DNA from: a virus
Lineage: Duplodnaviria > Caudoviricetes
Virus record (IMG/VR): IMGVR_UViG_3300028485_000001
Coordinates: 21,360-85,359 of that record
DNA: 64,000 nt
Reading direction: 5' to 3' (one strand)
The number at the start of each line of letters is the position of its first letter. Within the stretch, counting starts at the first letter, position 1. Positions 35,413 through 64,000 of this stretch are shown here, piece after piece. Under the pieces are notes generated by a model that saw nothing but the letters and a program-made list of their open reading frames with translations, ran no database searches and was not told the origin of the DNA. The translations under genes were made by a program, and so were the position numbers.

Positions 35413-36252
35413 CTAGAGGAGGTGGTTCAGGCGCCCGTCAGCGTGCGCCTTCGCGATCTCGTCCGGGGACATGGATTCGAGCTGCTCACGTGTGATCGGC
35501 TTGGAGCCGCCGGGGGAGTTGAACTCGCCGCCGGAACGCTTGGGAGCAGGGGGCTTGGGCGGATCCGCTGGCGCGGGCGCCTTCGCCTTGAAGCGGTCGT
35601 TGGCTTCCACCTGGTCGGTGATGGCCTTGCTCAGCCGGTCGTTGAAGTCCGCGGCGGTGGGGTCCAGCCCCTCTGCGGCGCGCATGAACGAACGGGAGTC
35701 GAGCAGTAGGTCGGCGCGCGCTTCGTGTGCGCCTGCCGCGTGGTACACCGCGAGTTCGACCTGGCCGCGCCGCGCTTCCGCCTGGGAGGCTGCGAGCTTC
35801 CGGGTGAGTTCGTCGGGGTCGGGAGGGGTGTCTTCCTGCTTGAGGCCCAGCGCCTTGGCGATGGCGTCCATCTGTGCCTGCTGGCGCTTCTCGGAGGCGT
35901 CGAGCTTGTCCTCCAGCTCCTTCGCGGTGGTCCGCCTCTCGGCGGCCTCCTCGCGGAGCTTCTTGACGTAGTCCTCACCGAAGGTCTTGGGCTCCGGGCC
36001 CTTGCCCTTCGACTCGGCGTCGCCCTTGGACTCCTGGGGCAGGTGGTCGCCACTGGGAGCCGCCGGGGGCTGAGCGCTGCCGCCGTCTCCGCCCTGTGGA
36101 GTGCCGCCGGGGGCCGGGTCGCCGTCGGGGGCGCTCGGCTTGGGGTCGGGGTTCGGGTCGCCTTCGCCGGATCCACCCGCGATCAGGTGGATCGGTCGGC
36201 CGTCCTTGCGGTAGCCGATGAGGGACCCGGGGGTAGAGGTCGAATGCATCAT
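35413..36252 (-). CDS. Capsid scaffolding protein
   Basis: LIGYRKDGRPI..IAGG, DYVKKLREEAAERR, DLLLDSRSF. Confidence 0.8.
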   Translation of the reverse strand: MMHSTSTPGSLIGYRKDGRPIHLIAGGSGEGDPNPDPKPSAPDGDPAPGGTPQGGDGGSAQPPAAPSGDHLPQESKGDAESKGKGPEPKTFGEDYVKKLREEAAERRTTAKELEDKLDASEKRQQAQMDAIAKALGLKQEDTPPDPDELTRKLAASQAEARRGQVELAVYHAAGAHEARADLLLDSRSFMRAAEGLDPTAADFNDRLSKAITDQVEANDRFKAKAPAPADPPKPPAPKRSGGEFNSPGGSKPITREQLESMSPDEIAKAHADGRLNHLL

Positions 36253-43708: not shown

Positions 43709-44092
43709 TCAGGCGACGCGGTTCGCGATGTCGAGCAGCACATCGGCGTGACACGGGGCATCCTCAGCGCACCAGCACATGAGGGTCCGGCCAGCGAGCC
43801 CGTCACGGGCGCGGTTCGTGAGGTCTGCGTTGACCTCCAGCCACGCGCGGTACAGGTCCACCGCGACCTTGTGCGCTGCCTCACGAGTGGGGTGAGTGGT
43901 GGGCTTGATCTCCCAGCCGCCGCGCCAGTCCCGGGCGACTTCCCAGCCGCGCTCGGCTTCGATGGCGACCCAGGGGCTGCCCCAGCGGGTGTTGCGTCCG
44001 ACGTAGACCGGGCGACGGCCCTGAGGATCGAGGGGGGCGGTCCATCCTGCGATGCGACGACGCTGGATGCGCCGGGGCGCGCTGACAGTCAT
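43709..44092 (-). CDS. DUF4326-family protein
   Basis: RRIQRRRIAGW, VYVGRNTRWGSPW, LAGRTLMCWC...CHADVLL.IAN. Confidence 0.8.
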   Translation of the reverse strand: MTVSAPRRIQRRRIAGWTAPLDPQGRRPVYVGRNTRWGSPWVAIEAERGWEVARDWRGGWEIKPTTHPTREAAHKVAVDLYRAWLEVNADLTNRARDGLAGRTLMCWCAEDAPCHADVLLDIANRVA

Positions 44093-56660: not shown

Positions 56661-56721
56661 GTCTCCTCGGTATCGTGTTCCCGGGCCGCCCCTGCTTGGT
56701 ACAGGGACGGCCTTCTGCGTG
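56661..56721. repeat. Intergenic repeat, copy 1 (copy 2 at 60429-60487)
   Basis: 31/31 identical GTCTCCTCGGTATCGTGTTCCCGGGCCGCCC plus CGGCCTTCTGCGTG. Confidence 0.85.
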
Positions 56722-56728
56722 GGCGGGG

Positions 56729-56929
56729 TCAAGCGGGCCTGTACTCCAACCGGAGCGGGCCCCAGTTCTTGGACACCTCCGCGATGGGCTGCCCGGCGGA
56801 CCCGTGGGCGTACACAGCGCCGATCGCGTACAGGTTGGCGGGGTGGGTGTCGGACGCGTACACGAACCAGAGTTCGCCGTCTGCGTCGCGGGCGAGGTCT
56901 CCGGGGCGGGGGGTGTAACGGGCGGGCAT
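56729..56929 (-). CDS. Hypothetical protein, paralogue of 60495..60683
   Basis: GDLARDADGELWFVY...WGPLRLEY. Confidence 0.65.
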   Translation of the reverse strand: MPARYTPRPGDLARDADGELWFVYASDTHPANLYAIGAVYAHGSAGQPIAEVSKNWGPLRLEYRPA

Positions 56930-57331: not shown

Positions 57332-57700
57332 TCAGCGGTTCGCGATGTCGAGCAGAACGTCTGCGTGGCACGGGGACCCCTCCGGGCACCAGCACATGAG
57401 CGTCTTCCCGGCCAGTCCTTCGCGTGCTCGGGTGTTGAGGTCGATGTTCGATTCCAGCCACTCGCGGTACAGGTCGACCGCGACCTTGGTTGCGGCCTCT
57501 CGTGTGGGGTGGGTGGTGGGCTTGGTGACTCAGCCGCCGCACCAGTCCCGGGTGACTTCCCAGCCGTTCTTGGTTTCGGTGATGGACCAGGGGTTGCCCC
57601 AGCGGGTGTTGCGTCCGACGTAGACCGGGCGGTCGCCGTGCGGGTCGCGGGGGGCGGTCCATCCGGCGGTGCGGTGACGCTGGATTCGCTGGGGGGTCAT
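57332..57700 (-). pseudogene. DUF4326 paralogue with an in-frame TGA at 57530-57532
   Basis: Colinear with 43709..44092; TGG(Trp) there is TGA here and the frame continues to LLDIANR*. Confidence 0.75.
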
Positions 57701-57722
57701 CGGGGCTCCTTGCTTTGTTTCC

Positions 57723-57803
57723 ATTTTACCCGTTCATGGGTGGCTTGCCACCTAGTCTCGCACACAGATTGACGGGTGGCAAGCCACCTGAGAACATGGG
57801 TCC
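57723..57803. promoter_or_regulatory. Divergent promoters with two GGTGGC-N2-GCCACC operators
   Basis: Palindromes at 57739-57752 and 57775-57788; TTGACG-N17-GAACAT-N6-ATG (+); TAAAAT (-). Confidence 0.75.
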
Positions 57804-58001
57804 ATGGCAAACCAGCACAAGCACAAACAGAGAGTCCTACGAGGCATCCCAGACGACCTCGCGGACGACTTCGACACCGCAGCGAAAAGGACAGGCTCGG
57901 ACCGTTCAGCGGTCACCCGTCAGCTTTGGGAGGCGTGGCTGGGGTACCCGGGCGCGGAGTGGCCGCCAGCCCCGGAGAGGGAGGGTGAGCGGCCGGCCTA
58001 A
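57804..58001 (+). CDS. Ribbon-helix-helix regulator, leaderless
   Basis: QRVLRGIPDDLADDFDTAAKRTGSDRSAVTRQLWEAWLGYPGA. Confidence 0.7.
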   Translation: MANQHKHKQRVLRGIPDDLADDFDTAAKRTGSDRSAVTRQLWEAWLGYPGAEWPPAPEREGERPA

Positions 58002-58043: not shown

Positions 58044-58063
58044 TGCACGTGCATACCGGGTAC
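58044..58063. repeat. 20-bp direct repeat, second copy at 59176-59195
   Basis: TGCACGTGCATACCGGGTAC, identical in both places. Confidence 0.85.
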
Positions 58064-58214: not shown

Positions 58215-58652
58215 TCACCTCTGCGACCGCCTGCCCTCCACCTGCTCCGGTGTCGGCTCCCGGAAGTCGTGCCCGAGGTCGGGCAGCGCGGGATCATCCA
58301 GCCAGTCGTCAGCGGGATTGTCCCACTCGTCCACGGTCCGGATGGGGCCGTGCGCGGCCTCGGGGCGCCCGCAGGTGCGACACCCGTCCACCGGGTACTT
58401 TTCCGTGGCTGGTGGGGTGTTGCGGAGCTCGTGGTTCTTCTTGCGGGCCGACACCCGCGCTTCGGACATCCCGAGGAGCCGGGCAACCTGGATGCCGGTC
58501 ATGCCGGAGTTGAGCATCTCCGCGACCACTTCGTCTTGGTAGGCGGACGCGGCGGCCTTGGCTTGGCTGATGATCTTCCCGGCTTCGCGGTATCGGTCTT
58601 CGAACGGGAGCCGGTCCAGGGTCTCGCGGTTGATGCGGATGTAGTCGGTCAT
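58215..58652 (-). CDS. Coiled-coil/HTH regulator with C-terminal Cys/His domain
   Basis: TGIQVARLLGMSEARVS; GCRTCGRPEAAH. Confidence 0.65.
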   Translation of the reverse strand: MTDYIRINRETLDRLPFEDRYREAGKIISQAKAAASAYQDEVVAEMLNSGMTGIQVARLLGMSEARVSARKKNHELRNTPPATEKYPVDGCRTCGRPEAAHGPIRTVDEWDNPADDWLDDPALPDLGHDFREPTPEQVEGRRSQR

Positions 58653-59080
58653 CGCAGGCCAGCTTTCTTGAGGGCGTCGGCGGTGGCGGTGGGCCGGTCG
58701 GTTCCGGTGGCCATGGCGTTGGTGATGTCGGTGCCGACGGTGCGGCCCAGGTCGGTGAGTTCGACGTGGTACTTGGCGTCGCGGACCAGGAGGCCGGCGT
58801 TGATGAGGCGAGCGCCGCGCTCGTTGTGAGCGAGTTCGTCGCGCATGAGGAGGCGGCAGTTGCCGGTGCGGACCCAGGTGGCGATGGGGCGGAGGTCGCC
58901 GTGGGTGAGGTTCACAGTGGTGGCCTTCTTGGTGTTGAGGGCGATGCGGCGGGCGAGAGAGAGGCCGTCGATGATCCACCGGCCAGCGGCCTTGACGGCT
59001 TTGATGGCGCCGTAGCGGGCCCAGTGACGGATGGTGGGGACGGTGACCTTGGCCTGGCGTGCGGCTTCGGTGGTGTTCAT
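58649..59080 (-). CDS. Excisionase/MerR-like HTH protein
   Basis: TTEAARQAKVTVPTIRHWARYGAIKA.K..GRWIID. Confidence 0.7.
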   Translation of the reverse strand: MNTTEAARQAKVTVPTIRHWARYGAIKAVKAAGRWIIDGLSLARRIALNTKKATTVNLTHGDLRPIATWVRTGNCRLLMRDELAHNERGARLINAGLLVRDAKYHVELTDLGRTVGTDITNAMATGTDRPTATADALKKAGLR

Positions 59081-59110
59081 CGTGGCCCCTCTCGTTGTGC
59101 TGTTGGGATC

Positions 59111-59153
59111 AACTTAACCCTAGTGTTCAGATGTTGTCAACAGTAGGGTTAAG
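59111..59153 (-). promoter_or_regulatory. Promoter bracketed by a 10-bp inverted repeat
   Basis: TTGACA-N18-TAAGTT; CTTAACCCTA (59113)/TAGGGTTAAG (59144). Confidence 0.75.
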
Positions 59154-59207
59154 ATAGGTCCACAGAACCCCCTGATGCACGTGCATACCGGGTACACTGG
59201 GAGGACA

Positions 59208-59290
59208 ACCACATAAAGCGAGCCCGCACGGTGGTGGAACACCGAACGGGCTCTGACCACCTCACCTGTTACGACCAGGAAGGCGGCTGG
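59208..59290 (-). ncRNA. Putative counter-transcribed antisense RNA of the rep leader, copy 1
   Basis: - strand TAGGAT box, two hairpins, T-rich tail; conserved with copy 2. Confidence 0.5.
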
Positions 59291-59380
59291 GATGAATCCT
59301 AGTCACATGGTAGCCCGTACCCGAAACCGGGTCGCTACCCGACGCGACACACCCGTGTACCTCCCCCAGGGAGGCACGCG

Positions 59381-59716
59381 ATGAGCCTCTACCCCATCAT
59401 CTGGGCCCTGGAGCACGCCCCCGTCATCGACGCCGCTGAGCGCGCCGTCCTCATGGCACTCGCCAACAAGGGCGACTTCGACGGCTGCAACGCCTACCGG
59501 GGCTACCCCGCGCTTTCCCGCGTCGCCAAGGTCGACCCCAAGACCGTCAAGCGCAAGTGCCACGCCATGGAAGCACGCGGCATCCTGCGGCGCCAGACCG
59601 GAAAGATGCCCGAAGGCTGGCTGAAGCTCCCCGCCGACAAGAAGACCGTCGTCTGGGAAATCATGATCCCCCACTCCTACTTCAGCGCTCAGCAGCTCGC
59701 GAACACCAACGAGACA
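59381..59716 (+). pseudogene. Truncated HTH replication-initiator-like gene
   Basis: IWALEHAPV..AERAVLMALAN..D.DG...Y...LSRVAKVDPKTVKR; after NETR it runs into the antisense strand of other genes. Confidence 0.55.
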
Positions 59717-59770
59717 CGGCCCGCCCTTCACGGCGTTCACGCGCGCCTCGATCGCTTCCAGGTCCATCAC
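59714..59770 (-). pseudogene. 5' stub of an Ead/Ea22-like gene
   Basis: GTGA-coupled start; MDLEAIEARVNAVKGGP, then runs into antisense rep sequence where the family has GPW. Confidence 0.4.
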
Positions 59771-60081
59771 TGCTCTCCTTCCAGGGAGCGCAAGCGCTCG
59801 TACAGCCCACGCTCCCGAGCCTGCGACTCGGAGAGCTGCCGTTGGAGGTCGTCGTGCTCGTCGCGCACCCAGCGTTTCCAGAAGGCTGCTTCTTCCTCCC
59901 TCGCGCGTTCGACCTTGCTCTCGATGATGTTCTTGGTGAAGCCGCGCTGACGCTCCTGCTCGGCCTCGACCACGCCCATGACGGTGTCGGTGATCCGAAC
60001 CTCGTCGTCCTCGGAGGGGTGGTGGTCCAGGCCGTCTGTGTTGCAGATCGCCTGGTGGATTTGGTCTCGCAGCTCAGACAT
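59767..60081 (-). CDS. Coiled-coil protein, N-terminus paralogous to 55713..56156
   Basis: LRDQI...TDTVMGVV. Confidence 0.55.
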   Translation of the reverse strand: MSELRDQIHQAICNTDGLDHHPSEDDEVRITDTVMGVVEAEQERQRGFTKNIIESKVERAREEEAAFWKRWVRDEHDDLQRQLSESQARERGLYERLRSLEGEQ

Positions 60082-60425
60082 CAGGTCTCCTCTCGTCGCG
60101 CGTACTCCGCCGCCATCTCACGGGCCGTGGCCAGCGACACTTCGGGCTTCCTCGCGGGCAGGGGCTCCCGCTCGCTCAGAGCAGCGTTGTACTCCGCCCA
60201 CGACGGGCGGGTCTCGGCGGGCGCCTCGCTGGCCCGGTGCTGCCTCGCGGCCAGCCACCGCGACCCGAGGATCATCTCGGCGATCTCGTCGGCGTTGTCC
60301 TTGAGGTTGAGGTCCTGATGGCGGGCACCCCACAGGACGTGCACGAGCGCGGTGTGGTCGGACTCCCACGGCTCGAACGGCCCGTTGGTGCCGTTCTGAA
60401 GGGTGTCGGGGTCGGGTCGGGCCAT
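60081..60425 (-). CDS. Hypothetical protein
   Basis: GAGGAG RBS. Confidence 0.55.
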   Translation of the reverse strand: MARPDPDTLQNGTNGPFEPWESDHTALVHVLWGARHQDLNLKDNADEIAEMILGSRWLAARQHRASEAPAETRPSWAEYNAALSEREPLPARKPEVSLATAREMAAEYARREET

Positions 60426-60494
60426 CGTGTCTCCTCGGTATCGTGTTCCCGGGCCGCCCAGCTACGGACTGGGCGGCCTTCTGCGTGCGGGGGG

Positions 60495-60683
60495 TCAGGC
60501 GGCCCGGTGCTCCAGGCGGAGCGGCCCCCACCACTTGATGACGTGGTCGATGGGATGCCCCTTGGCGGCCGGGTCGTAGTCGGCACTGATGGCGTGCAGG
60601 TTGTCGGGAGGGCCGTACACGAACCACAGCTCGTGGTCGGCGTCGCGGACGAGGTCGCCGGCGCGGTGGGTGTAGGGGGTCAT
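60495..60683 (-). CDS. Hypothetical protein, paralogue of 56729..56929
   Basis: GDLVRDADHELWFVY...WGPLRLEH. Confidence 0.65.
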   Translation of the reverse strand: MTPYTHRAGDLVRDADHELWFVYGPPDNLHAISADYDPAAKGHPIDHVIKWWGPLRLEHRAA

Positions 60684-60711
60684 CAGGTCTCCTCAGCCGG
60701 GCGGTCGGGGG

Positions 60712-60927
60712 CTAGGCGGGCGCGTAGCCGGACTTGTACGGGGTGCCGTCCGCCTTCGTCGCAGACGGTCGGAGCTGCTTCGCGTCGATCCAGCGGACGT
60801 TCTTGCCGCGCGGGTCGGAGACCTTGACCCGGTCGCCGCCGTCGTACTCGTGGACGATCAGGACGATGTTGTCGAGCGGGTGGCAGGCCGCGTACCGGGT
60901 GTTCGGGCGGATGTGATCGGTGGCCAT
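60712..60927 (-). CDS. Hypothetical protein
   Basis: AAGGAG RBS; MATDHIRPNTRYAACHP... Confidence 0.6.
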   Translation of the reverse strand: MATDHIRPNTRYAACHPLDNIVLIVHEYDGGDRVKVSDPRGKNVRWIDAKQLRPSATKADGTPYKSGYAPA

Positions 60928-60958
60928 TGGGGGCTCCTTCGTTGGATGGGGTAGGGGG

Positions 60959-61555
60959 TCAGCAGTCGGCGTGCACGAACCCGTAGAAGCGCACGTCCGA
61001 GAAGTCGGACAGAAGGTCCGAGCCGTCGTAGTTGTAGGCGTCCAAGATCGCCTTGAGCTCCCTGCTGAGCTCGCCCAGCGCGGGCGTGCCCGTCCGCACC
61101 ACGTCGCCACGGTCATCCACAGACTCCGTCCAACCCCACTCGGCGGGGATGTTCCGGATGACCACGTCGATGCTGCTTCCGCCTGCGTAGGTGCGGGTGC
61201 GCACGCTGTAGGTGATCTGCGCGGGGGCGTTGGCGATCGGGTCGGTGGTCGCGAGGGCCGCGCCGTCGTCCGACTGCGCCTGTTTGCCGATCTTGCGGGC
61301 CATCTTGATGTCAGCCCGCACCAGCTTCGCGATGTCGGCGGTGCGCAGGCCCTCGGTGCTGTCGTGCTTGGCCCCGTAGGTGCGGCGGTCGACGACGCCG
61401 GTTTCACTGAGGCGGACGCCGTTCGCGCGGGCCTTGATGATGAGGCGGCGGAGCATTCGGCGGGCGGCGTCGCGCTCTGGGGTGCTGGTGCGCGGGTGGT
61501 TGATGAGCGCGTTCAGCAGGCCGACCTTGGACTTCAGCTTGAGTGTGGCGCTCAT
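60959..61555 (-). CDS. LPD29-like domain protein with N-terminal helical hairpin
   Basis: IAKLVRADIK...YSVRTRTYAGGSSIDV...YNYDGSD..SDF..VRFYG. Confidence 0.5.
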   Translation of the reverse strand: MSATLKLKSKVGLLNALINHPRTSTPERDAARRMLRRLIIKARANGVRLSETGVVDRRTYGAKHDSTEGLRTADIAKLVRADIKMARKIGKQAQSDDGAALATTDPIANAPAQITYSVRTRTYAGGSSIDVVIRNIPAEWGWTESVDDRGDVVRTGTPALGELSRELKAILDAYNYDGSDLLSDFSDVRFYGFVHADC

Positions 61556-61587
61556 CAGGTCCCCTTCTCAGTATCGGTACTTCCTAT

Positions 61588-61642
61588 GGATACAAGGTAT
61601 CCATACCTAGGCAAGAATGCAAGGTATCTATACTCTGTATCT
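61588..61642. promoter_or_regulatory. Divergent promoters with GGATAC-N3-GTATCC operator
   Basis: - strand TTGCAT-N17-TACCTT; + strand TACTCT-N6-ATG; extra GTATCT half-sites. Confidence 0.7.
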
Positions 61643-61876
61643 ATGGACAGGCAGAGGGAGACCATGAAGCAAGCAGCCGAGGACTACGGCACCGCCAAGG
61701 AGACACTCGACGAGGCGCGCGACGCCATGCGAGCAGCCATCGTGGACGCCCTCAACGCCGGGATGACCCCAACGGAGGTGAACGCCCTGTCTCCGTTCAC
61801 GCCGGCGTACAACCGGAGGATCGCGGAAGGCGCGGGGGTGGCGCCACGGCCGAAGGGGCCAAAGAAGGCGTCCTGA
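61643..61876 (+). CDS. Small coiled-coil/HTH regulator, leaderless, homologue of 2169..2390
   Basis: EARD...ALNAGMTPTEVNALSPFTPAY. Confidence 0.7.
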   Translation: MDRQRETMKQAAEDYGTAKETLDEARDAMRAAIVDALNAGMTPTEVNALSPFTPAYNRRIAEGAGVAPRPKGPKKAS

Positions 61877-61962
61877 CACGCGAAAGCCCCCGCCCGCCGG
61901 GGGCTGCACACACGAAAGCCCGGCACATGGCCGGGCTCGTGGGGCGTCTGCGGTGGATGCCT

Positions 61963-62463
61963 TCAGTAGATGGGACTGGGCCCCTCCACCGTCACCACCA
62001 CCGCTTCATCGGCAGCGTCGGTACGGCTGATCATGGCGCTTCCGCTGTACTCTTCACCGCCCCCCGGCATGGAACGCCCCCCGGCGTTGGACTCCGGAGC
62101 CGTGACCGTGATCTCCACTTCGTAGACGTCCGCTGGCGGGGCCGGGATGGTGACCTCCAGGACACACGAGGCTTCGCCGTCCACCTCCCGTACCTGGCCT
62201 TCGCCGACTTCCAGACCCCCGACATCCACCACGGTTCCAGCGCCGTCCATCACGGCGTAGGTGGGCTCATGCCATGTGCATGTCCCGTCCTCGTGGTCGT
62301 CTGCGAGCCGCCATGAGGTGGTGACTGCCTCTACCTGGAGCGGGAAGGGGCTCTGGCCGGGAGGGGTGGCGTCGGCTTGCTGAGGGGACTGTATGGCGGG
62401 CGTCTGGGAGCAGGCGGTCAGGCCCAGGGCGAGGACGACGGGGGCGAGGGGGCGGAACTGCAA
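61963..62463 (-). CDS. Lipoprotein
   Basis: Signal peptide with lipobox LTAC; GGAGG RBS, TTG start. Confidence 0.7.
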   Translation of the reverse strand: MQFRPLAPVVLALGLTACSQTPAIQSPQQADATPPGQSPFPLQVEAVTTSWRLADDHEDGTCTWHEPTYAVMDGAGTVVDVGGLEVGEGQVREVDGEASCVLEVTIPAPPADVYEVEITVTAPESNAGGRSMPGGGEEYSGSAMISRTDAADEAVVVTVEGPSPIY

Positions 62464-62524
62464 GGGGCCTCCAGGACGGCACGGTCATGTGACCCCCACG
62501 TAAAGGGGGTAAACTGGGAGGACA

Positions 62525-62607
62525 ACCAAAAAGAGCGAGCCCGCACGGTGCGTCAACACCGAACGGGCTCTGACCACCGATCCTGATTAGCGCAGGAAGG
62601 CGGCTAG
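62525..62607 (-). ncRNA. Putative counter-transcribed antisense RNA of the rep leader, copy 2
   Basis: - strand TAAGCT box, same two hairpins, CTCTTTTT tail. Confidence 0.5.
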
Positions 62608-62695
62608 GCATGAAGCTTAGCTTCAGCATACCCGGATGCTCGAACCGGGGCAGTGACTCGCGAGTCACAACCGCGTACCCCTCGGCGGTGACGCG

Positions 62696-63808
62696 ATGAA
62701 GGTGCACCGCACCAAGCACACCGCGAACTTCACGATCGCCCCGAACGCGATCCTTCGCGAAGAGCGCATGTCCGAGATGGCGCGCTTGATCCTCCTCCGG
62801 CTGCTGTCCAACGCAGACGACTTCAACGGGGCCACCGCACTCAAGATGTGGGAAGACGCCCGGAAGATCCGAGGTGACGCAGCCCCCGGCAAGCGAGCGT
62901 TCCTCCACGCCTTCAACGAGATGGAAGCGTTCGGCTACCTCGTGCGCACCAAGGTCCGTGAGGGCAGCAAGTGGGTCACTCGCGTGGACGTCTATGACAC
63001 CCCTCAGAACCTCCCAGAGGAAGAGCCCGGAGGCGACTCTCTCGGACTGCCCGGTATCGGGAAGCCCGAAGGCGAGAAGCCCGAGCCCGGGAAGTCCGAA
63101 AGCGGGCAGTCTTCTAAAAGGACCACTCAGAAGGATGTATCTAGAAGGACTACTTCCTCTTCTTCGGCTGAGGTCGAGGACATCACCCACGAGGCGACAC
63201 CTCCCGCCGTCGAGAAGAAGACGAAGCGATCACCAGAAGCCATCGTCCAAGAACGCACCGGCTGCACCGACGACGAAGCCGCCGCCGTCGTGGACTTCAT
63301 CGAGCAGCAAGGTGACAGCGGCCAGCCGATCCGCCGCATCATCCCGTGGGTGACGGGCCGGGCCGATCGGGACCTTGCCCGCGACCTCGCGCACGTGCGC
63401 CGCTTCGCTGAGTCCCCGCCCGCTGACGCCGCCTGCTCCGAGCACGGCGTGACCCTCGCCCCCGGGTACTGCTCCGCCTGCGAGGCCGACATGGCGGCGG
63501 GCGACTTCGAGACCGTGCGGAAGATCCTCGCCCGTGACGGAGCGACCGCACGCCCCGATCTCGCACGCCGCCTCGGAGCGCCCCACGTGCCCGCACAGGG
63601 CACAACAGGAGCGCCCAGCATCCAGGACATCCAAAGGGCCGAGAAGCGCGCCAGGGGCGGCTACACGCCCTACCGCAACCCCGCAAACCAAGACGAGTAC
63701 GACGGCTCGCTGCTGCCGACCCCCCGCCCGCAGGGCCTCAGCGGGGCACTCGCGCCCATCGTGACCGCAGAGCAGATCCGCAGCGGCGCAGCCGAACTCC
63801 GGGTCTAA
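62696..63808 (+). CDS. Replication initiator/replisome-organiser-like HTH protein
   Basis: NFTIAPNAILREERMSEMARLILLRLLS..D...AFNEMEAFGYL; GKPE repeats; C-terminal CSEH...CSAC like the 7162 protein. Confidence 0.65.
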   Translation: MKVHRTKHTANFTIAPNAILREERMSEMARLILLRLLSNADDFNGATALKMWEDARKIRGDAAPGKRAFLHAFNEMEAFGYLVRTKVREGSKWVTRVDVYDTPQNLPEEEPGGDSLGLPGIGKPEGEKPEPGKSESGQSSKRTTQKDVSRRTTSSSSAEVEDITHEATPPAVEKKTKRSPEAIVQERTGCTDDEAAAVVDFIEQQGDSGQPIRRIIPWVTGRADRDLARDLAHVRRFAESPPADAACSEHGVTLAPGYCSACEADMAAGDFETVRKILARDGATARPDLARRLGAPHVPAQGTTGAPSIQDIQRAEKRARGGYTPYRNPANQDEYDGSLLPTPRPQGLSGALAPIVTAEQIRSGAAELRV

Positions 63809-63887
63809 CGCCACGAAGCGGGCCCGCCCGGTGACGACCACCCGGCGGGCCCACCCCCCATCAGCGAACATGGACACAGGAGGAACC

Positions 63888-64000
63888 ATGGACCAGCGCC
63901 CGATCCTGTTCATCGACGTCGACGGACCCCTCAACCCCTACGACCGCTCCAACCGGTCCGCGCACCGCGCCGGGTACGCGCGCCGCAAGATCGAAGAGTT
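63888..64000 (+). CDS. HAD-domain protein, 5' part only
   Basis: AGGAGG RBS; RPILFIDVDGPLNPY (DxDG motif). Confidence 0.65.
   Translation, partial: MDQRPILFIDVDGPLNPYDRSNRSAHRAGYARRKIEE

What the first reader, a model, noticed from the sequence alone, without database searches (positions are those of the whole stretch)
59190..62696. Duplicated antisense-RNA-type control leader in front of two unrelated initiator genes
Seen: 59197-59288 and 62514-62605 are colinear 92-bp blocks. Each has a sense -10 at its start (TACACT/TAAACT), an antisense -10 just past its end (TAGGAT/TAAGCT) and a rep ATG 91-93 nt later. The antisense strand folds into GCCGCC-CCTG/CAGG-GGTGGT and GAGCCCG-CGGTG/CACCG-CGGGCTC hairpins with a T-rich tail. 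Stems are conserved while loops differ (GTCGTAA vs CGCTAAT; TTCCAC vs TTGACG). Established: plasmid counter-transcript RNAs set copy number and incompatibility through loop sequences. Inference: a ctRNA-controlled replicon family with two specificities, pointing to phage-plasmid or satellite biology.
Basis: partly seen in the sequence, partly recalled or inferred. Interest (0 to 1): 0.78.

Follow-up and report, generated by a model that had tools for sequence, protein, structure and literature searches.

The report
Antisense RNA brake on phage replication gene
Both repeats are copies of a previously undescribed small antisense RNA cassette, common in mobile elements of Nocardiopsis and related actinobacteria, that most likely throttles the phage's DNA-replication starter protein; one copy now sits in front of a broken gene.

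Summary
59190-59291 and 62507-62608 are 83% identical, and the differences avoid the stems (2/50 paired vs 18/43 unpaired positions, p=8e-6).

A covariance model finds this two-hairpin element in 49 of 51 Nocardiopsis genomes, in other Actinomycetia and in Thermobifida phage P1312. It matches no Rfam family.

Evidence that a roughly 80-85-nt antisense RNA is made:
- covariation (94% paired; 12 of 25 pairs show double changes);
- 148 G-U against 14 A-C cells, which places the structure on the antisense strand;
- a TANNNT box at a fixed distance in 53/61 members;
- a T-rich tail.

The RNA covers the ribosome-binding site of a 28-33-codon leader ORF. That ORF's stop overlaps the rep start (ATGA/GTGA), and the rep ribosome-binding site is locked in a hairpin. 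This is the logic of R1 tap/repA and IncB/IncI-alpha repY.

The 5' loop is hypervariable (33 variants in 38), as expected of a specificity determinant.

- The initiators are not unrelated. RepA' is the first 111 codons of a 419-aa initiator whose C-terminus matches RepB (88%), and 59714-63154 is a recombinational replacement.
- The record has a serine integrase and DnaB and no ParB match, so a phage-plasmid or satellite is not supported.

No transcript data were available.

The parts
59176..59198 (+). Sense (rep mRNA) promoter region of copy A: 10-bp palindrome TGCACGTGCA (59176-59185) and -10 box TACACT (59193-59198)
   Evidence: Sequence. The palindrome occurs only here and at 58044 in the window and recurs upstream of the -10 box in relatives. 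A sense TANNNT lies at a fixed offset in 28 of 57 members, against a background of 0.001 per position.
59204..59295 (-). Predicted counter-transcript RNA, copy A (about 80-85 nt): 5' stem-loop 59256-59287 (loop GUCGUAA), terminator stem-loop 59220-59253, T-rich tail 59204-59219
   Evidence: CM hits of 92.8 bits (R1) and 87.9 bits (R2); fold -48.7 kcal/mol, z -4.7; covariation and G-U asymmetry across the family.
59296..59301 (-). Antisense -10 box TAGGAT, inside codons 2-4 of the leader ORF
   Evidence: A TANNNT lies at offset -1 to +1 from the 5' end of the model in 53 of 61 family members, although it lies outside the model.
59292..59384 (+). Leader ORF A (30 codons); its TGA overlaps the rep ATG (ATGA). 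Its Shine-Dalgarno (GGAAGG, 59279-59284) lies in the 3' arm of the target hairpin, which the antisense RNA covers
   Evidence: In 14 of 14 distinct leaders of this subfamily the frame, the length (28-33 codons) and the stop/start overlap are conserved.
59354..59380 (+). Hairpin that sequesters the rep Shine-Dalgarno (CCUCCC / GGGAGG) just before the rep ATG
   Evidence: RNAfold -17.8 kcal/mol. The same hairpin is present in all 14 leaders, in two compensating versions: CCUCCC/GGGAGG and CACCUC/GAGGUG.
59381..59713 (+). repA': 5' fragment (111 codons, wHTH DNA-binding domain) of a P0007-type initiator. The ORF then runs on as non-homologous read-through to 59950
   Evidence: BLASTP against P0007: near-identity over residues 1-111, then none. 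blastn colinearity with L006 ends at 59713. phrog_1032 matches residues 1-72 only.
59714..63154 (.). 3.4-kb replacement block: minus-strand cargo genes, then leader B and the 5' two-thirds of repB. It was acquired from a B-type relative and lies inside an A-type rep gene
   Evidence: Window 57695-57973, 59177-59713 and 63155-63815 are colinear with L006 (84-91%). Window 62506-63403 matches L004/L008 (81%).
62510..62515 (+). Sense -10 box TAAACT of copy B
   Evidence: Sequence; conserved TAnAnT in relatives.
62521..62612 (-). Predicted counter-transcript RNA, copy B: 5' stem-loop 62573-62604 (loop CGCUAAU), terminator stem-loop 62537-62570, T5 tail
   Evidence: CM hits of 93.3 and 91.3 bits; fold -44.9 kcal/mol, z -3.6.
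62614..62619 (-). Antisense -10 box TAAGCT
62610..62699 (+). Leader ORF B (29 codons); its TGA overlaps the rep ATG. A hairpin at 62661-62695 sequesters the rep Shine-Dalgarno
62696..63808 (+). repB, full-length 370-aa initiator (wHTH N-terminus, Cys/His-containing C-terminal domain)
   Evidence: phrog_1456 1e-57, phrog_270 and phrog_391. Homologues are in Nocardiopsis, some carrying PF13730 HTH_36. The C-terminus is 88% identical to P0007.
63116..63149 (+). Three ARAAGGA repeats 13-14 nt apart in a GC dip (48%) in the middle of repB: candidate internal origin (inference only)

Best explanation
Each block encodes, on the minus strand, a counter-transcript RNA of about 80-85 nt. It starts from a TANNNT promoter embedded in the first codons of a short leader ORF. 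It folds into a 5' stem-loop with a hypervariable 7-nt loop, followed by a GC-rich stem-loop with a T-rich tail that serves as terminator. It is fully complementary to the first ~85 nt of the rep mRNA, including the Shine-Dalgarno of a 29-30-codon leader ORF.

The rep gene's own Shine-Dalgarno is locked in a hairpin, and its start codon overlaps the leader ORF stop (ATGA). Rep can therefore be made only when ribosomes translate the leader ORF and open that hairpin. Pairing of the antisense RNA, probably nucleated by loop-loop contact, blocks leader translation and so blocks Rep synthesis. This gives negative feedback on replication, with a specificity set by the loop.

What is shown here is the comparative evidence: the structure, its strand, the promoter box, the tail, the leader ORF geometry and the sequestering hairpin. 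What is inferred is that the transcript exists, that it represses rep, and that the loop sets specificity.

The duplication arose when a 3.4-kb segment from a related phage (cargo genes, leader B and the 5' part of repB) replaced the middle of an A-type rep gene. This left copy A with a 111-codon stump, and left copy B driving the only complete initiator.
For: 1. Repeat and folding.
2. Family: model R1 hits 49 of 51 genomes of the Nocardiopsis genus, up to 9 per genome. R2 hits 25 of 151 sampled genomes of the family at E<=1e-8 and 13 of 151 of the class at E<=1e-6. Thermobifida phage P1312 scores 85.9 bits.
3. Structure: on 38 sequences 94.1% of cells pair, against 84.7% in shuffles and 32-47% when partners are slid. 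12 of 25 pairs and 69 cells show double changes (0 of 500 shuffles reach this). The terminator helix is 100% paired, with 6 of 8 pairs covarying.
4. Strand: 148 G-U against 14 A-C cells, that is 94.1% paired on the antisense strand against 79.9% on the sense strand.
5. Antisense promoter: TANNNT within +/-1 nt of a fixed position in 53 of 61 members, outside the model; the background rate for TANNNT on these loci is about 0.001 per position.
6. T-rich tails: 4-9 T in the first 14 nt (12 in the shortest) after the stem, in roughly 68%-GC DNA.
7. Leader ORF with (A/G)TGA overlap to the downstream gene in 14 of 14 distinct leaders and in P1312. The downstream Shine-Dalgarno is always in a hairpin, in two compensating sequence versions.
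8. The 5' loop has 33 variants in 38 members (entropy 1.59 bits, against 0.57 for stems). Differences between copies A and B avoid the stems.
9. The downstream genes are phage replication-initiator-like wHTH proteins. In P1312 the gene is followed by the replicative helicase.
10. Truncation and mosaic origin.
Against: There is no direct evidence of the transcript, and none of repression. The generic sigma-70 and terminator scan found neither the promoters nor the terminators at these sites: the -10-only promoters and the bulged stem fall outside its rules. The alignment used for the pair counts was fitted to the model on the antisense strand, which favours that strand somewhat. G·T pairs are also tolerated in single-stranded DNA hairpins. 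A 30-codon open frame is not rare in 68%-GC DNA, so translation of the leader ORF rests on the conserved stop/start overlap, not on its length. In many distant members no leader ORF exists and the long ORF starts directly at the target, so the coupling step applies only to the subfamily that contains the window copies. Copy A may be an inert remnant.
Confidence: 0.72

Rival explanations
1. The hairpins act only in the sense rep mRNA, as a cis-regulatory leader (a protein- or ligand-binding element, or a plain structure that sequesters the Shine-Dalgarno). No functional antisense RNA is made.
For: The sense strand also folds into mirror-image hairpins (z about -2.7). The 3' arm of the second sense hairpin contains the Shine-Dalgarno of the leader ORF or of the gene in all members.
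Against: Ten times more G-U than A-C cells place the better structure on the antisense strand. A TANNNT box on the antisense strand is fixed in 53 of 61 members, across unrelated coding sequences. The T-rich run follows the hairpin only on the antisense strand; on the sense strand it is an A-run in front of the hairpin.
Confidence: 0.1
2. The antisense RNA exists but works by transcription attenuation (as in pT181, pIP501 and pAM-beta-1) or by triggering mRNA cleavage, not by blocking leader-ORF translation.
For: Attenuation is the usual mode in Gram-positive theta and rolling-circle plasmids (established knowledge). Processing by RNase III would be compatible with a fully complementary duplex.
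Against: On inspection, no hairpin followed by a U-run lies between the target and the rep start in either window copy. The conserved leader ORF, the ATGA overlap and the sequestered rep Shine-Dalgarno have no role in an attenuation model.
Confidence: 0.08
3. The conserved hairpins are DNA-level signals (single-strand initiation or priming site, or a binding site for the initiator or a repressor) and not RNA genes.
For: They lie next to replication genes. G·T pairs are tolerated in single-stranded DNA hairpins. A palindrome, TGCACGTGCA, lies just upstream.
Against: This reading does not explain the fixed antisense TANNNT, the T-run, the constant register with the start codon and Shine-Dalgarno of the downstream ORF, or the hypervariable loop flanked by invariant stems.
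Confidence: 0.05
4. This concerns copy A only. It is an inert scar of recombination with no selected function. The alternative is a retained 'orphan' antisense RNA that silences incoming A-type phages.
For: It precedes a truncated gene. The stump is still about 93% identical to P0007 over 111 residues and is open, which is consistent with a recent event.
Against: Every element of copy A is intact: both promoters, both hairpins, the leader ORF and the Shine-Dalgarno hairpin. A stacked, diverged second cassette also occurs in front of another rep-like gene in a Nocardiopsis genome (L033).
Confidence: 0.55

Closest known systems
IncFII plasmid R1/R100 copy control: CopA antisense RNA, CopT target, tap leader peptide and repA
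   Same: A short, structured, terminator-ended antisense RNA is complementary to the rep mRNA leader. It covers the ribosome-binding region of a small leader ORF whose translation is coupled to rep through a stop/start overlap. The rep Shine-Dalgarno is sequestered. Specificity is carried by a loop.
   Different: There is no sequence or Rfam similarity. The initiator is a phage O-like/HTH_36 wHTH protein, not RepA_IncFII. The host is a high-GC actinobacterium, and the element is an integrating temperate phage or prophage, not a plasmid. The antisense promoter lies inside the first codons of the leader ORF. No CopB equivalent was identified; a palindrome at the promoter may play that part.
IncI-alpha (ColIb-P9), IncB (pMU720) and IncL/M: Inc RNA/RNAI, repY/repB leader peptide, repZ/repA
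   Same: A leader peptide of about 29 codons, translational coupling, a hairpin that hides the rep ribosome-binding site, and an antisense RNA that blocks leader translation.
   Different: Those systems need an activator pseudoknot between the target loop and a sequence near the rep ribosome-binding site. No consistent complementarity of that kind was seen here by inspection. Their antisense RNA has one stem-loop; this one has two.
pMV158/pLS1 RNAII with CopG, and the corynebacterial pGA1/pCG1 ctRNAs (Rfam ctRNA_pGA1)
   Same: Gram-positive and actinobacterial precedents for small countertranscripts that inhibit rep translation. A small HTH gene lies just upstream of the leader in relatives (L004 and L008), reminiscent of copG-repB.
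   Different: Those are rolling-circle plasmid replicons with different Rep families. No Rfam model scores above noise. No leader peptide coupling is described for them (from my own knowledge).
Lambda OOP RNA next to the O initiator gene
   Same: A short terminator-ended antisense RNA encoded directly upstream of a lambda-O-like phage initiator gene, in a temperate phage.
   Different: OOP is antisense to the 3' end of cII and acts on cII mRNA, not on the O leader. Here the RNA overlaps the initiator's own leader.

Membership tests
Counter-transcript RNA control of a replication initiator (functional class) | A promoter on the antisense strand within the rep leader | tested here: met
   TANNNT at a fixed offset in 53 of 61 members, outside the model. 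Sequence-level evidence only.
Counter-transcript RNA control of a replication initiator (functional class) | A conserved stem-loop structure on the antisense strand, supported by covariation | tested here: met
   94.1% paired, 12 pairs with double changes, 148 G-U against 14 A-C cells.
Counter-transcript RNA control of a replication initiator (functional class) | An intrinsic terminator that ends a short transcript | tested here: inconclusive
   A GC-rich stem followed by a T-rich tail in all 38 aligned members, but the run starts 2-4 nt after the stem and the generic scan does not call it.
Counter-transcript RNA control of a replication initiator (functional class) | The transcript exists and represses rep in trans, with loop-dependent specificity | not testable with these tools
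   No RNA run was listed. This needs Northern blots or RACE, and reporter assays.
R1 tap/repA and IncB/IncI-alpha repY/repZ type translational coupling | A short leader ORF whose stop overlaps or abuts the rep start, with its own Shine-Dalgarno inside the antisense target | tested here: met
   ATGA/GTGA overlap in 14 of 14 distinct leaders and in P1312. The leader Shine-Dalgarno GGAAGG lies in the 3' arm of the target hairpin.
R1 tap/repA and IncB/IncI-alpha repY/repZ type translational coupling | The rep Shine-Dalgarno is sequestered in a hairpin that leader translation would open | tested here: met
   the hairpin is present in all 14 leaders, in two compensating sequence versions.
R1 tap/repA and IncB/IncI-alpha repY/repZ type translational coupling | Homology of the RNA (CopA, RF00042) or of the initiator (RepA_IncFII / IncB RepA) | tested here: not met
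   No Rfam hit at gathering thresholds or at E<=10. Pfam and PHROGs place the initiators with HTH_36 and phage O-like proteins. So this is analogous, not a member.
R1 tap/repA and IncB/IncI-alpha repY/repZ type translational coupling | An activator pseudoknot (IncB/IncI-alpha only) | tested here: inconclusive
   Inspection of copies A and B found no complementarity shared by both between the target loops and the rep Shine-Dalgarno region. This was not tested statistically.
Rfam ctRNA families (ctRNA_pGA1, ctRNA_pND324, ctRNA_pT181, ctRNA_p42d) | A score at or near the family's gathering threshold | tested here: not met
   None is listed even at E<=10 on 300-nt stretches.
   A large serine recombinase is present and no ParB_N match was found. 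The window has a full tail/head/terminase block and DnaB. The record is only 81% complete, so absence of par genes is not proven.
Lambda O-type initiator (N-terminal origin-binding wHTH, origin inside the gene) | Profile similarity, plus iterons and an AT-rich patch inside the gene | tested here: inconclusive
   phrog_391 and phrog_270 hits at 1e-7 to 1e-9 on the N-terminus. Three ARAAGGA repeats lie in a 48%-GC dip at 63116-63149. No functional test was made.

The most novel reading that the evidence does not exclude
The cassette is a portable RNA 'barcode' for replication control and mutual exclusion among actinobacterial temperate phages and integrated elements. Its hypervariable 5' loop would define compatibility groups. 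Orphan or stacked cassettes, such as copy A here or the tandem pair in L033, would be retained because their antisense RNA silences the initiator of incoming phages of that type. That would be an RNA-based superinfection exclusion acting on replication, not on transcriptional immunity.
Probability: 0.2. Interest if true: 0.8.

Novelty: new variant of a known kind. Interest (0 to 1): 0.62.

Why it matters
Antisense control of initiator synthesis is textbook for plasmids of Proteobacteria and Firmicutes. I found no description of it for replication modules of actinobacterial phages or prophages in Rfam, in the papers searched, or in the P1312 genome paper.

This element is abundant: nearly every Nocardiopsis genome carries it, often several copies. 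It has strong covariation, so it could be added to Rfam as it stands, and it would annotate hundreds of currently 'intergenic' stretches.

It gives a testable explanation of how several related prophages could coexist in one genome, through loop-specific control.

It also offers small, orthogonal copy-control and repressor parts for genetic tools in high-GC actinomycetes. One experimentally tractable host is available, phage P1312 on Thermobifida fusca.

The truncated repA' and the mosaic repB show that recombination swaps the control cassette together with the origin-binding domain, as a unit, against a common C-terminal domain.

Tried and rejected
- Rfam at gathering thresholds over the whole window, and at E<=10 on both leaders: nothing relevant.
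- Exact-pattern scan and RepB peptide scan of viral contigs: no hits.
- Megablast of 59100-63900 against the phage collection: no match.
- Genome-contig scan with the Rep alignment: one locus only.
- The look-up of encoding contigs for P0010: not on record.
- Sequencing runs: no RNA holder was listed, so expression could not be examined and read laying was not used.
- The generic sigma-70 and terminator scan found nothing at the predicted promoters or terminators. Its rules do not fit -10-only actinobacterial promoters or bulged stems.
- RNAalifold on a MAFFT alignment of the leader ORF region did not recover the rep Shine-Dalgarno hairpin, because indels misalign it. Single-sequence folds did.
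- A pseudoknot of the IncB/IncI-alpha type was looked for by eye and not found consistently.
- The YUNR motif is present in loop 1 of copy B but not of copy A, so it was not used as evidence.
- The idea that the minus-strand RNA is a 5' leader of the minus-strand gene to its left (58649-59080, or 61963-62463) was considered. It was rejected because in relatives (L004, L007, L008) the gene on that side is on the plus strand.
- The mycobacteriophage RepA/RNA-origin paper (PMC7157519) describes a different system.
- Pfam gave no family for RepA', RepB, P0007 or P1312 ORF55.

Full report
**Context.** The window is bases 21360-85359 of an 85,359-bp IMG/VR virus record. It has 68% GC and a contiguous block of large minus-strand ORFs at about 20.9-38 kb, including a 1168-aa ORF of tape-measure size, that looks like a siphovirus structural module; these were not profile-searched. 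It also has a DnaB helicase and an ATP-dependent ligase. The record carries a large serine recombinase upstream of the window. No tyrosine-integrase or ParB_N match was found. The closest relatives of the complete initiator gene are in Nocardiopsis genomes and metagenomes, so the host is probably Nocardiopsis or a close relative.

**Observation.** The two blocks exist as described: 59190-59291 and 62507-62608, 83% identical over 102 nt. They are the only copies in the window and in the record. The minus strand folds markedly better than the plus strand (-48.7 and -44.9 against -39.0 and -38.2 kcal/mol). Differences between the copies avoid the stems: 2 of 50 paired positions differ against 18 of 43 unpaired (p=7.8e-6).

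**It is a family.**
- Upstream regions of RepB homologues fetched from Nocardiopsis genomes and metagenomes carry the same element, with compensatory changes such as GAGCCCG/CGGGCTC to GAAGCCG/CGGCTTC.
- A covariance model built from 7 sequences (R1) found matches in 49 of 51 genomes of the Nocardiopsis genus, up to 9 per genome.
- A second model built from 38 matches (R2) found it in 25 of 151 sampled genomes of the family at E<=1e-8, and in 13 of 151 genomes sampled across the class at E<=1e-6.
- The isolated Thermobifida phage P1312 carries a complete copy (85.9 bits). It is unannotated there and lies directly upstream of ORF55, which is followed by the replicative helicase. The P1312 genome paper does not mention it (PMC4569894).
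- No Rfam family matches, and the literature searches returned no description of it.

**Structure and strand.** On the 38-sequence alignment:
- 94.1% of cells form standard pairs, against 84.7% in shuffles and 32-47% with slid partners.
- 12 of 25 pairs and 69 cells show changes on both sides; 0 of 500 shuffles reach this.
- The terminator helix is 100% paired, with 6 of 8 pairs covarying.
- There are 148 G-U cells against 14 A-C cells, so the structure is 94.1% paired on the antisense strand but only 79.9% on the mRNA strand. The alignment was fitted on the antisense strand, which biases this somewhat, but a tenfold asymmetry is large.

Three features lend further support; the first lies outside the model and the start codons only partly inside it:
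- A TANNNT box on the antisense strand lies within +/-1 nt of a fixed position in 53 of 61 members, although it sits inside the first codons of quite different ORFs (the background rate for TANNNT on these loci is about 0.001 per position).
- A T-rich tail follows the second hairpin on the antisense strand only.
- A start codon lies 3-8 nt inside the 5' end of the model, preceded by a Shine-Dalgarno in the hairpin arm.

Together these describe a short antisense transcript that is fully complementary to the start of the sense mRNA and covers the ribosome-binding site.

**Mechanism in the subfamily that contains the window copies.** Immediately after the target lies a leader ORF of 28-33 codons: 59292-59384 in copy A and 62610-62699 in copy B. 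Its stop overlaps the start of the downstream gene as ATGA or GTGA in 14 of 14 distinct leaders and in P1312. The last ~30 nt of the leader ORF form a hairpin whose 3' arm is the rep Shine-Dalgarno. It occurs in two compensating versions, CCUCCC/GGGAGG and CACCUC/GAGGUG, and in the second version the start codon is paired as well.

This is the architecture of R1 tap/repA and of IncB/IncI-alpha repY/repZ (established knowledge). Rep is translated only by coupling to the leader ORF, and the antisense RNA blocks the leader's ribosome-binding site. On inspection, no terminator-like hairpin with a U-run lies in the sense leader, which argues against attenuation.

In more distant members the long ORF begins directly at the target. 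In several of them it carries an N-terminal extension that resembles the leader peptide fused in frame. There the RNA would act directly on the gene's own ribosome-binding site.

**Specificity.** The loop of the 5' hairpin is hypervariable: 33 variants in 38 members, with entropy 1.59 bits against 0.57 for stems. The terminator loop is semi-conserved, with two main versions. Copies A and B differ at 5 of 7 positions in loop 1 and 4 of 6 in loop 2. By inspection, non-cognate loop pairing would give 2 of 7 and 2 of 6 matches. This fits loop-defined specificity groups, as in plasmid incompatibility, but it is an inference.

**What the genes are.**
- RepB (370 aa) matches phrog_1456 (1e-57) and, in its N-terminus, phage replication-initiator and O-like profiles. 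Homologues carry HTH_36.
- Genes behind other family members are mostly initiator-like wHTH proteins with very different N-termini. The cassette is therefore portable across initiator types.
- The ORF behind copy A is not a second, unrelated initiator. Its first 111 residues are nearly identical to P0007, a 419-aa Nocardiopsis protein, after which similarity stops.
- P0007's last 224 residues are 88% identical to RepB.

At the DNA level, window 57695-57973, 59177-59713 and 63155-63815 are colinear with the P0007 locus (84-91%). Window 62506-63403 resembles the L004/L008 type (81%). So 59714-63154 is a 3.4-kb replacement inside an A-type rep gene. It brought in minus-strand cargo genes (some with paralogues upstream), leader B and the origin-binding part of RepB, and it recombined in the shared C-terminal half. 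Copy A is therefore the intact control cassette of a broken gene. Whether it is still useful, for instance to silence incoming A-type phages, is open. A diverged tandem pair of cassettes in front of one rep-like gene in another genome (L033) shows that stacking recurs.

**Lifestyle.** A serine integrase, a DnaB helicase, complete virion genes, no ParB match, chromosomal copies in almost all Nocardiopsis genomes, and presence in the tailed phage P1312 all point to the early replication module of temperate siphoviruses. They do not point to a phage-plasmid or satellite. The record is 81% complete, so absent genes are not proof.

**Limits.** No RNA data could be obtained. Promoter, terminator, repression and coupling are all inferred from sequence comparison.

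**Verdict.** This is a real, strongly supported, apparently undescribed antisense-RNA family that controls initiator genes of actinobacterial phages and prophages, through a mechanism analogous to known plasmid systems but not homologous to them. Its 'two unrelated initiators' and 'phage-plasmid/satellite' parts do not.

Noticed in passing
window 58044-58063 and 59176-59195: An exact 20-bp direct repeat (TGCACGTGCATACCGGGTAC) flanks a 1.1-kb block with two minus-strand genes. It contains the 10-bp palindrome TGCACGTGCA. In relatives (L008, L010, L020, L024, L031, L047) that palindrome lies directly upstream of the sense -10 box of the rep leader, so it is a candidate operator. The left copy follows a terminator-like hairpin, as in relatives, so the block looks inserted into the rep promoter region.
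   Followed up: partly
window 63116-63149: Three ARAAGGA repeats 13-14 nt apart lie in a 48%-GC dip in the middle of repB, at the boundary between the variable N-terminal part and the shared C-terminal part (the recombination junction is at about 63155). This is a candidate lambda-O-style origin inside the initiator gene.
   Followed up: partly
L033:1369-1593 (G045:C10:81004-81228): Two antisense-RNA cassettes lie in tandem 132 nt apart, with different loops, in front of a single rep-like ORF. The duplication is in frame with the ORF.
   Followed up: partly
L011, L012, L013, L043, L044, L046, L054, L058, L060: Lower-scoring members of the same RNA family (about 39-67 bits) precede small predicted membrane proteins, not initiators. 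These proteins have an N-terminal motif of the form G-R-H-R-(K/R)-(P/R) and no Pfam or PHROG hit. Others precede unrelated small ORFs (L051/L052/L061, L056/L059).
   Followed up: partly
window 59714-59770: At the truncation point of repA', a minus-strand ORF start (ATG at 59767, overlapping the stop of the 104-aa gene 59767-60081 as ATGA) reads about 17 plausible codons (MDLEAIEARVNAVKGGP). It then runs antisense through repA'. The junction seems to have cut two convergent genes.
   Followed up: no
window 56705-56922 vs 60471-60679; 43718-44017 vs 57335-57634: Further diverged internal duplications (72-83% identity). The first pair covers a 62-66-aa minus-strand gene present both upstream of leader A and inside the 3.4-kb replacement block, with a homologue in L006.
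   Followed up: partly
L063 (Thermobifida phage P1312, KT021004.1, record 36145-36238): The complete cassette (sense -10 box, antisense RNA, 30-codon leader ORF with GTGA overlap) is unannotated in this published phage genome. It precedes 'hypothetical protein' ORF55, which is of the same initiator type as L019/L024.
   Followed up: yes
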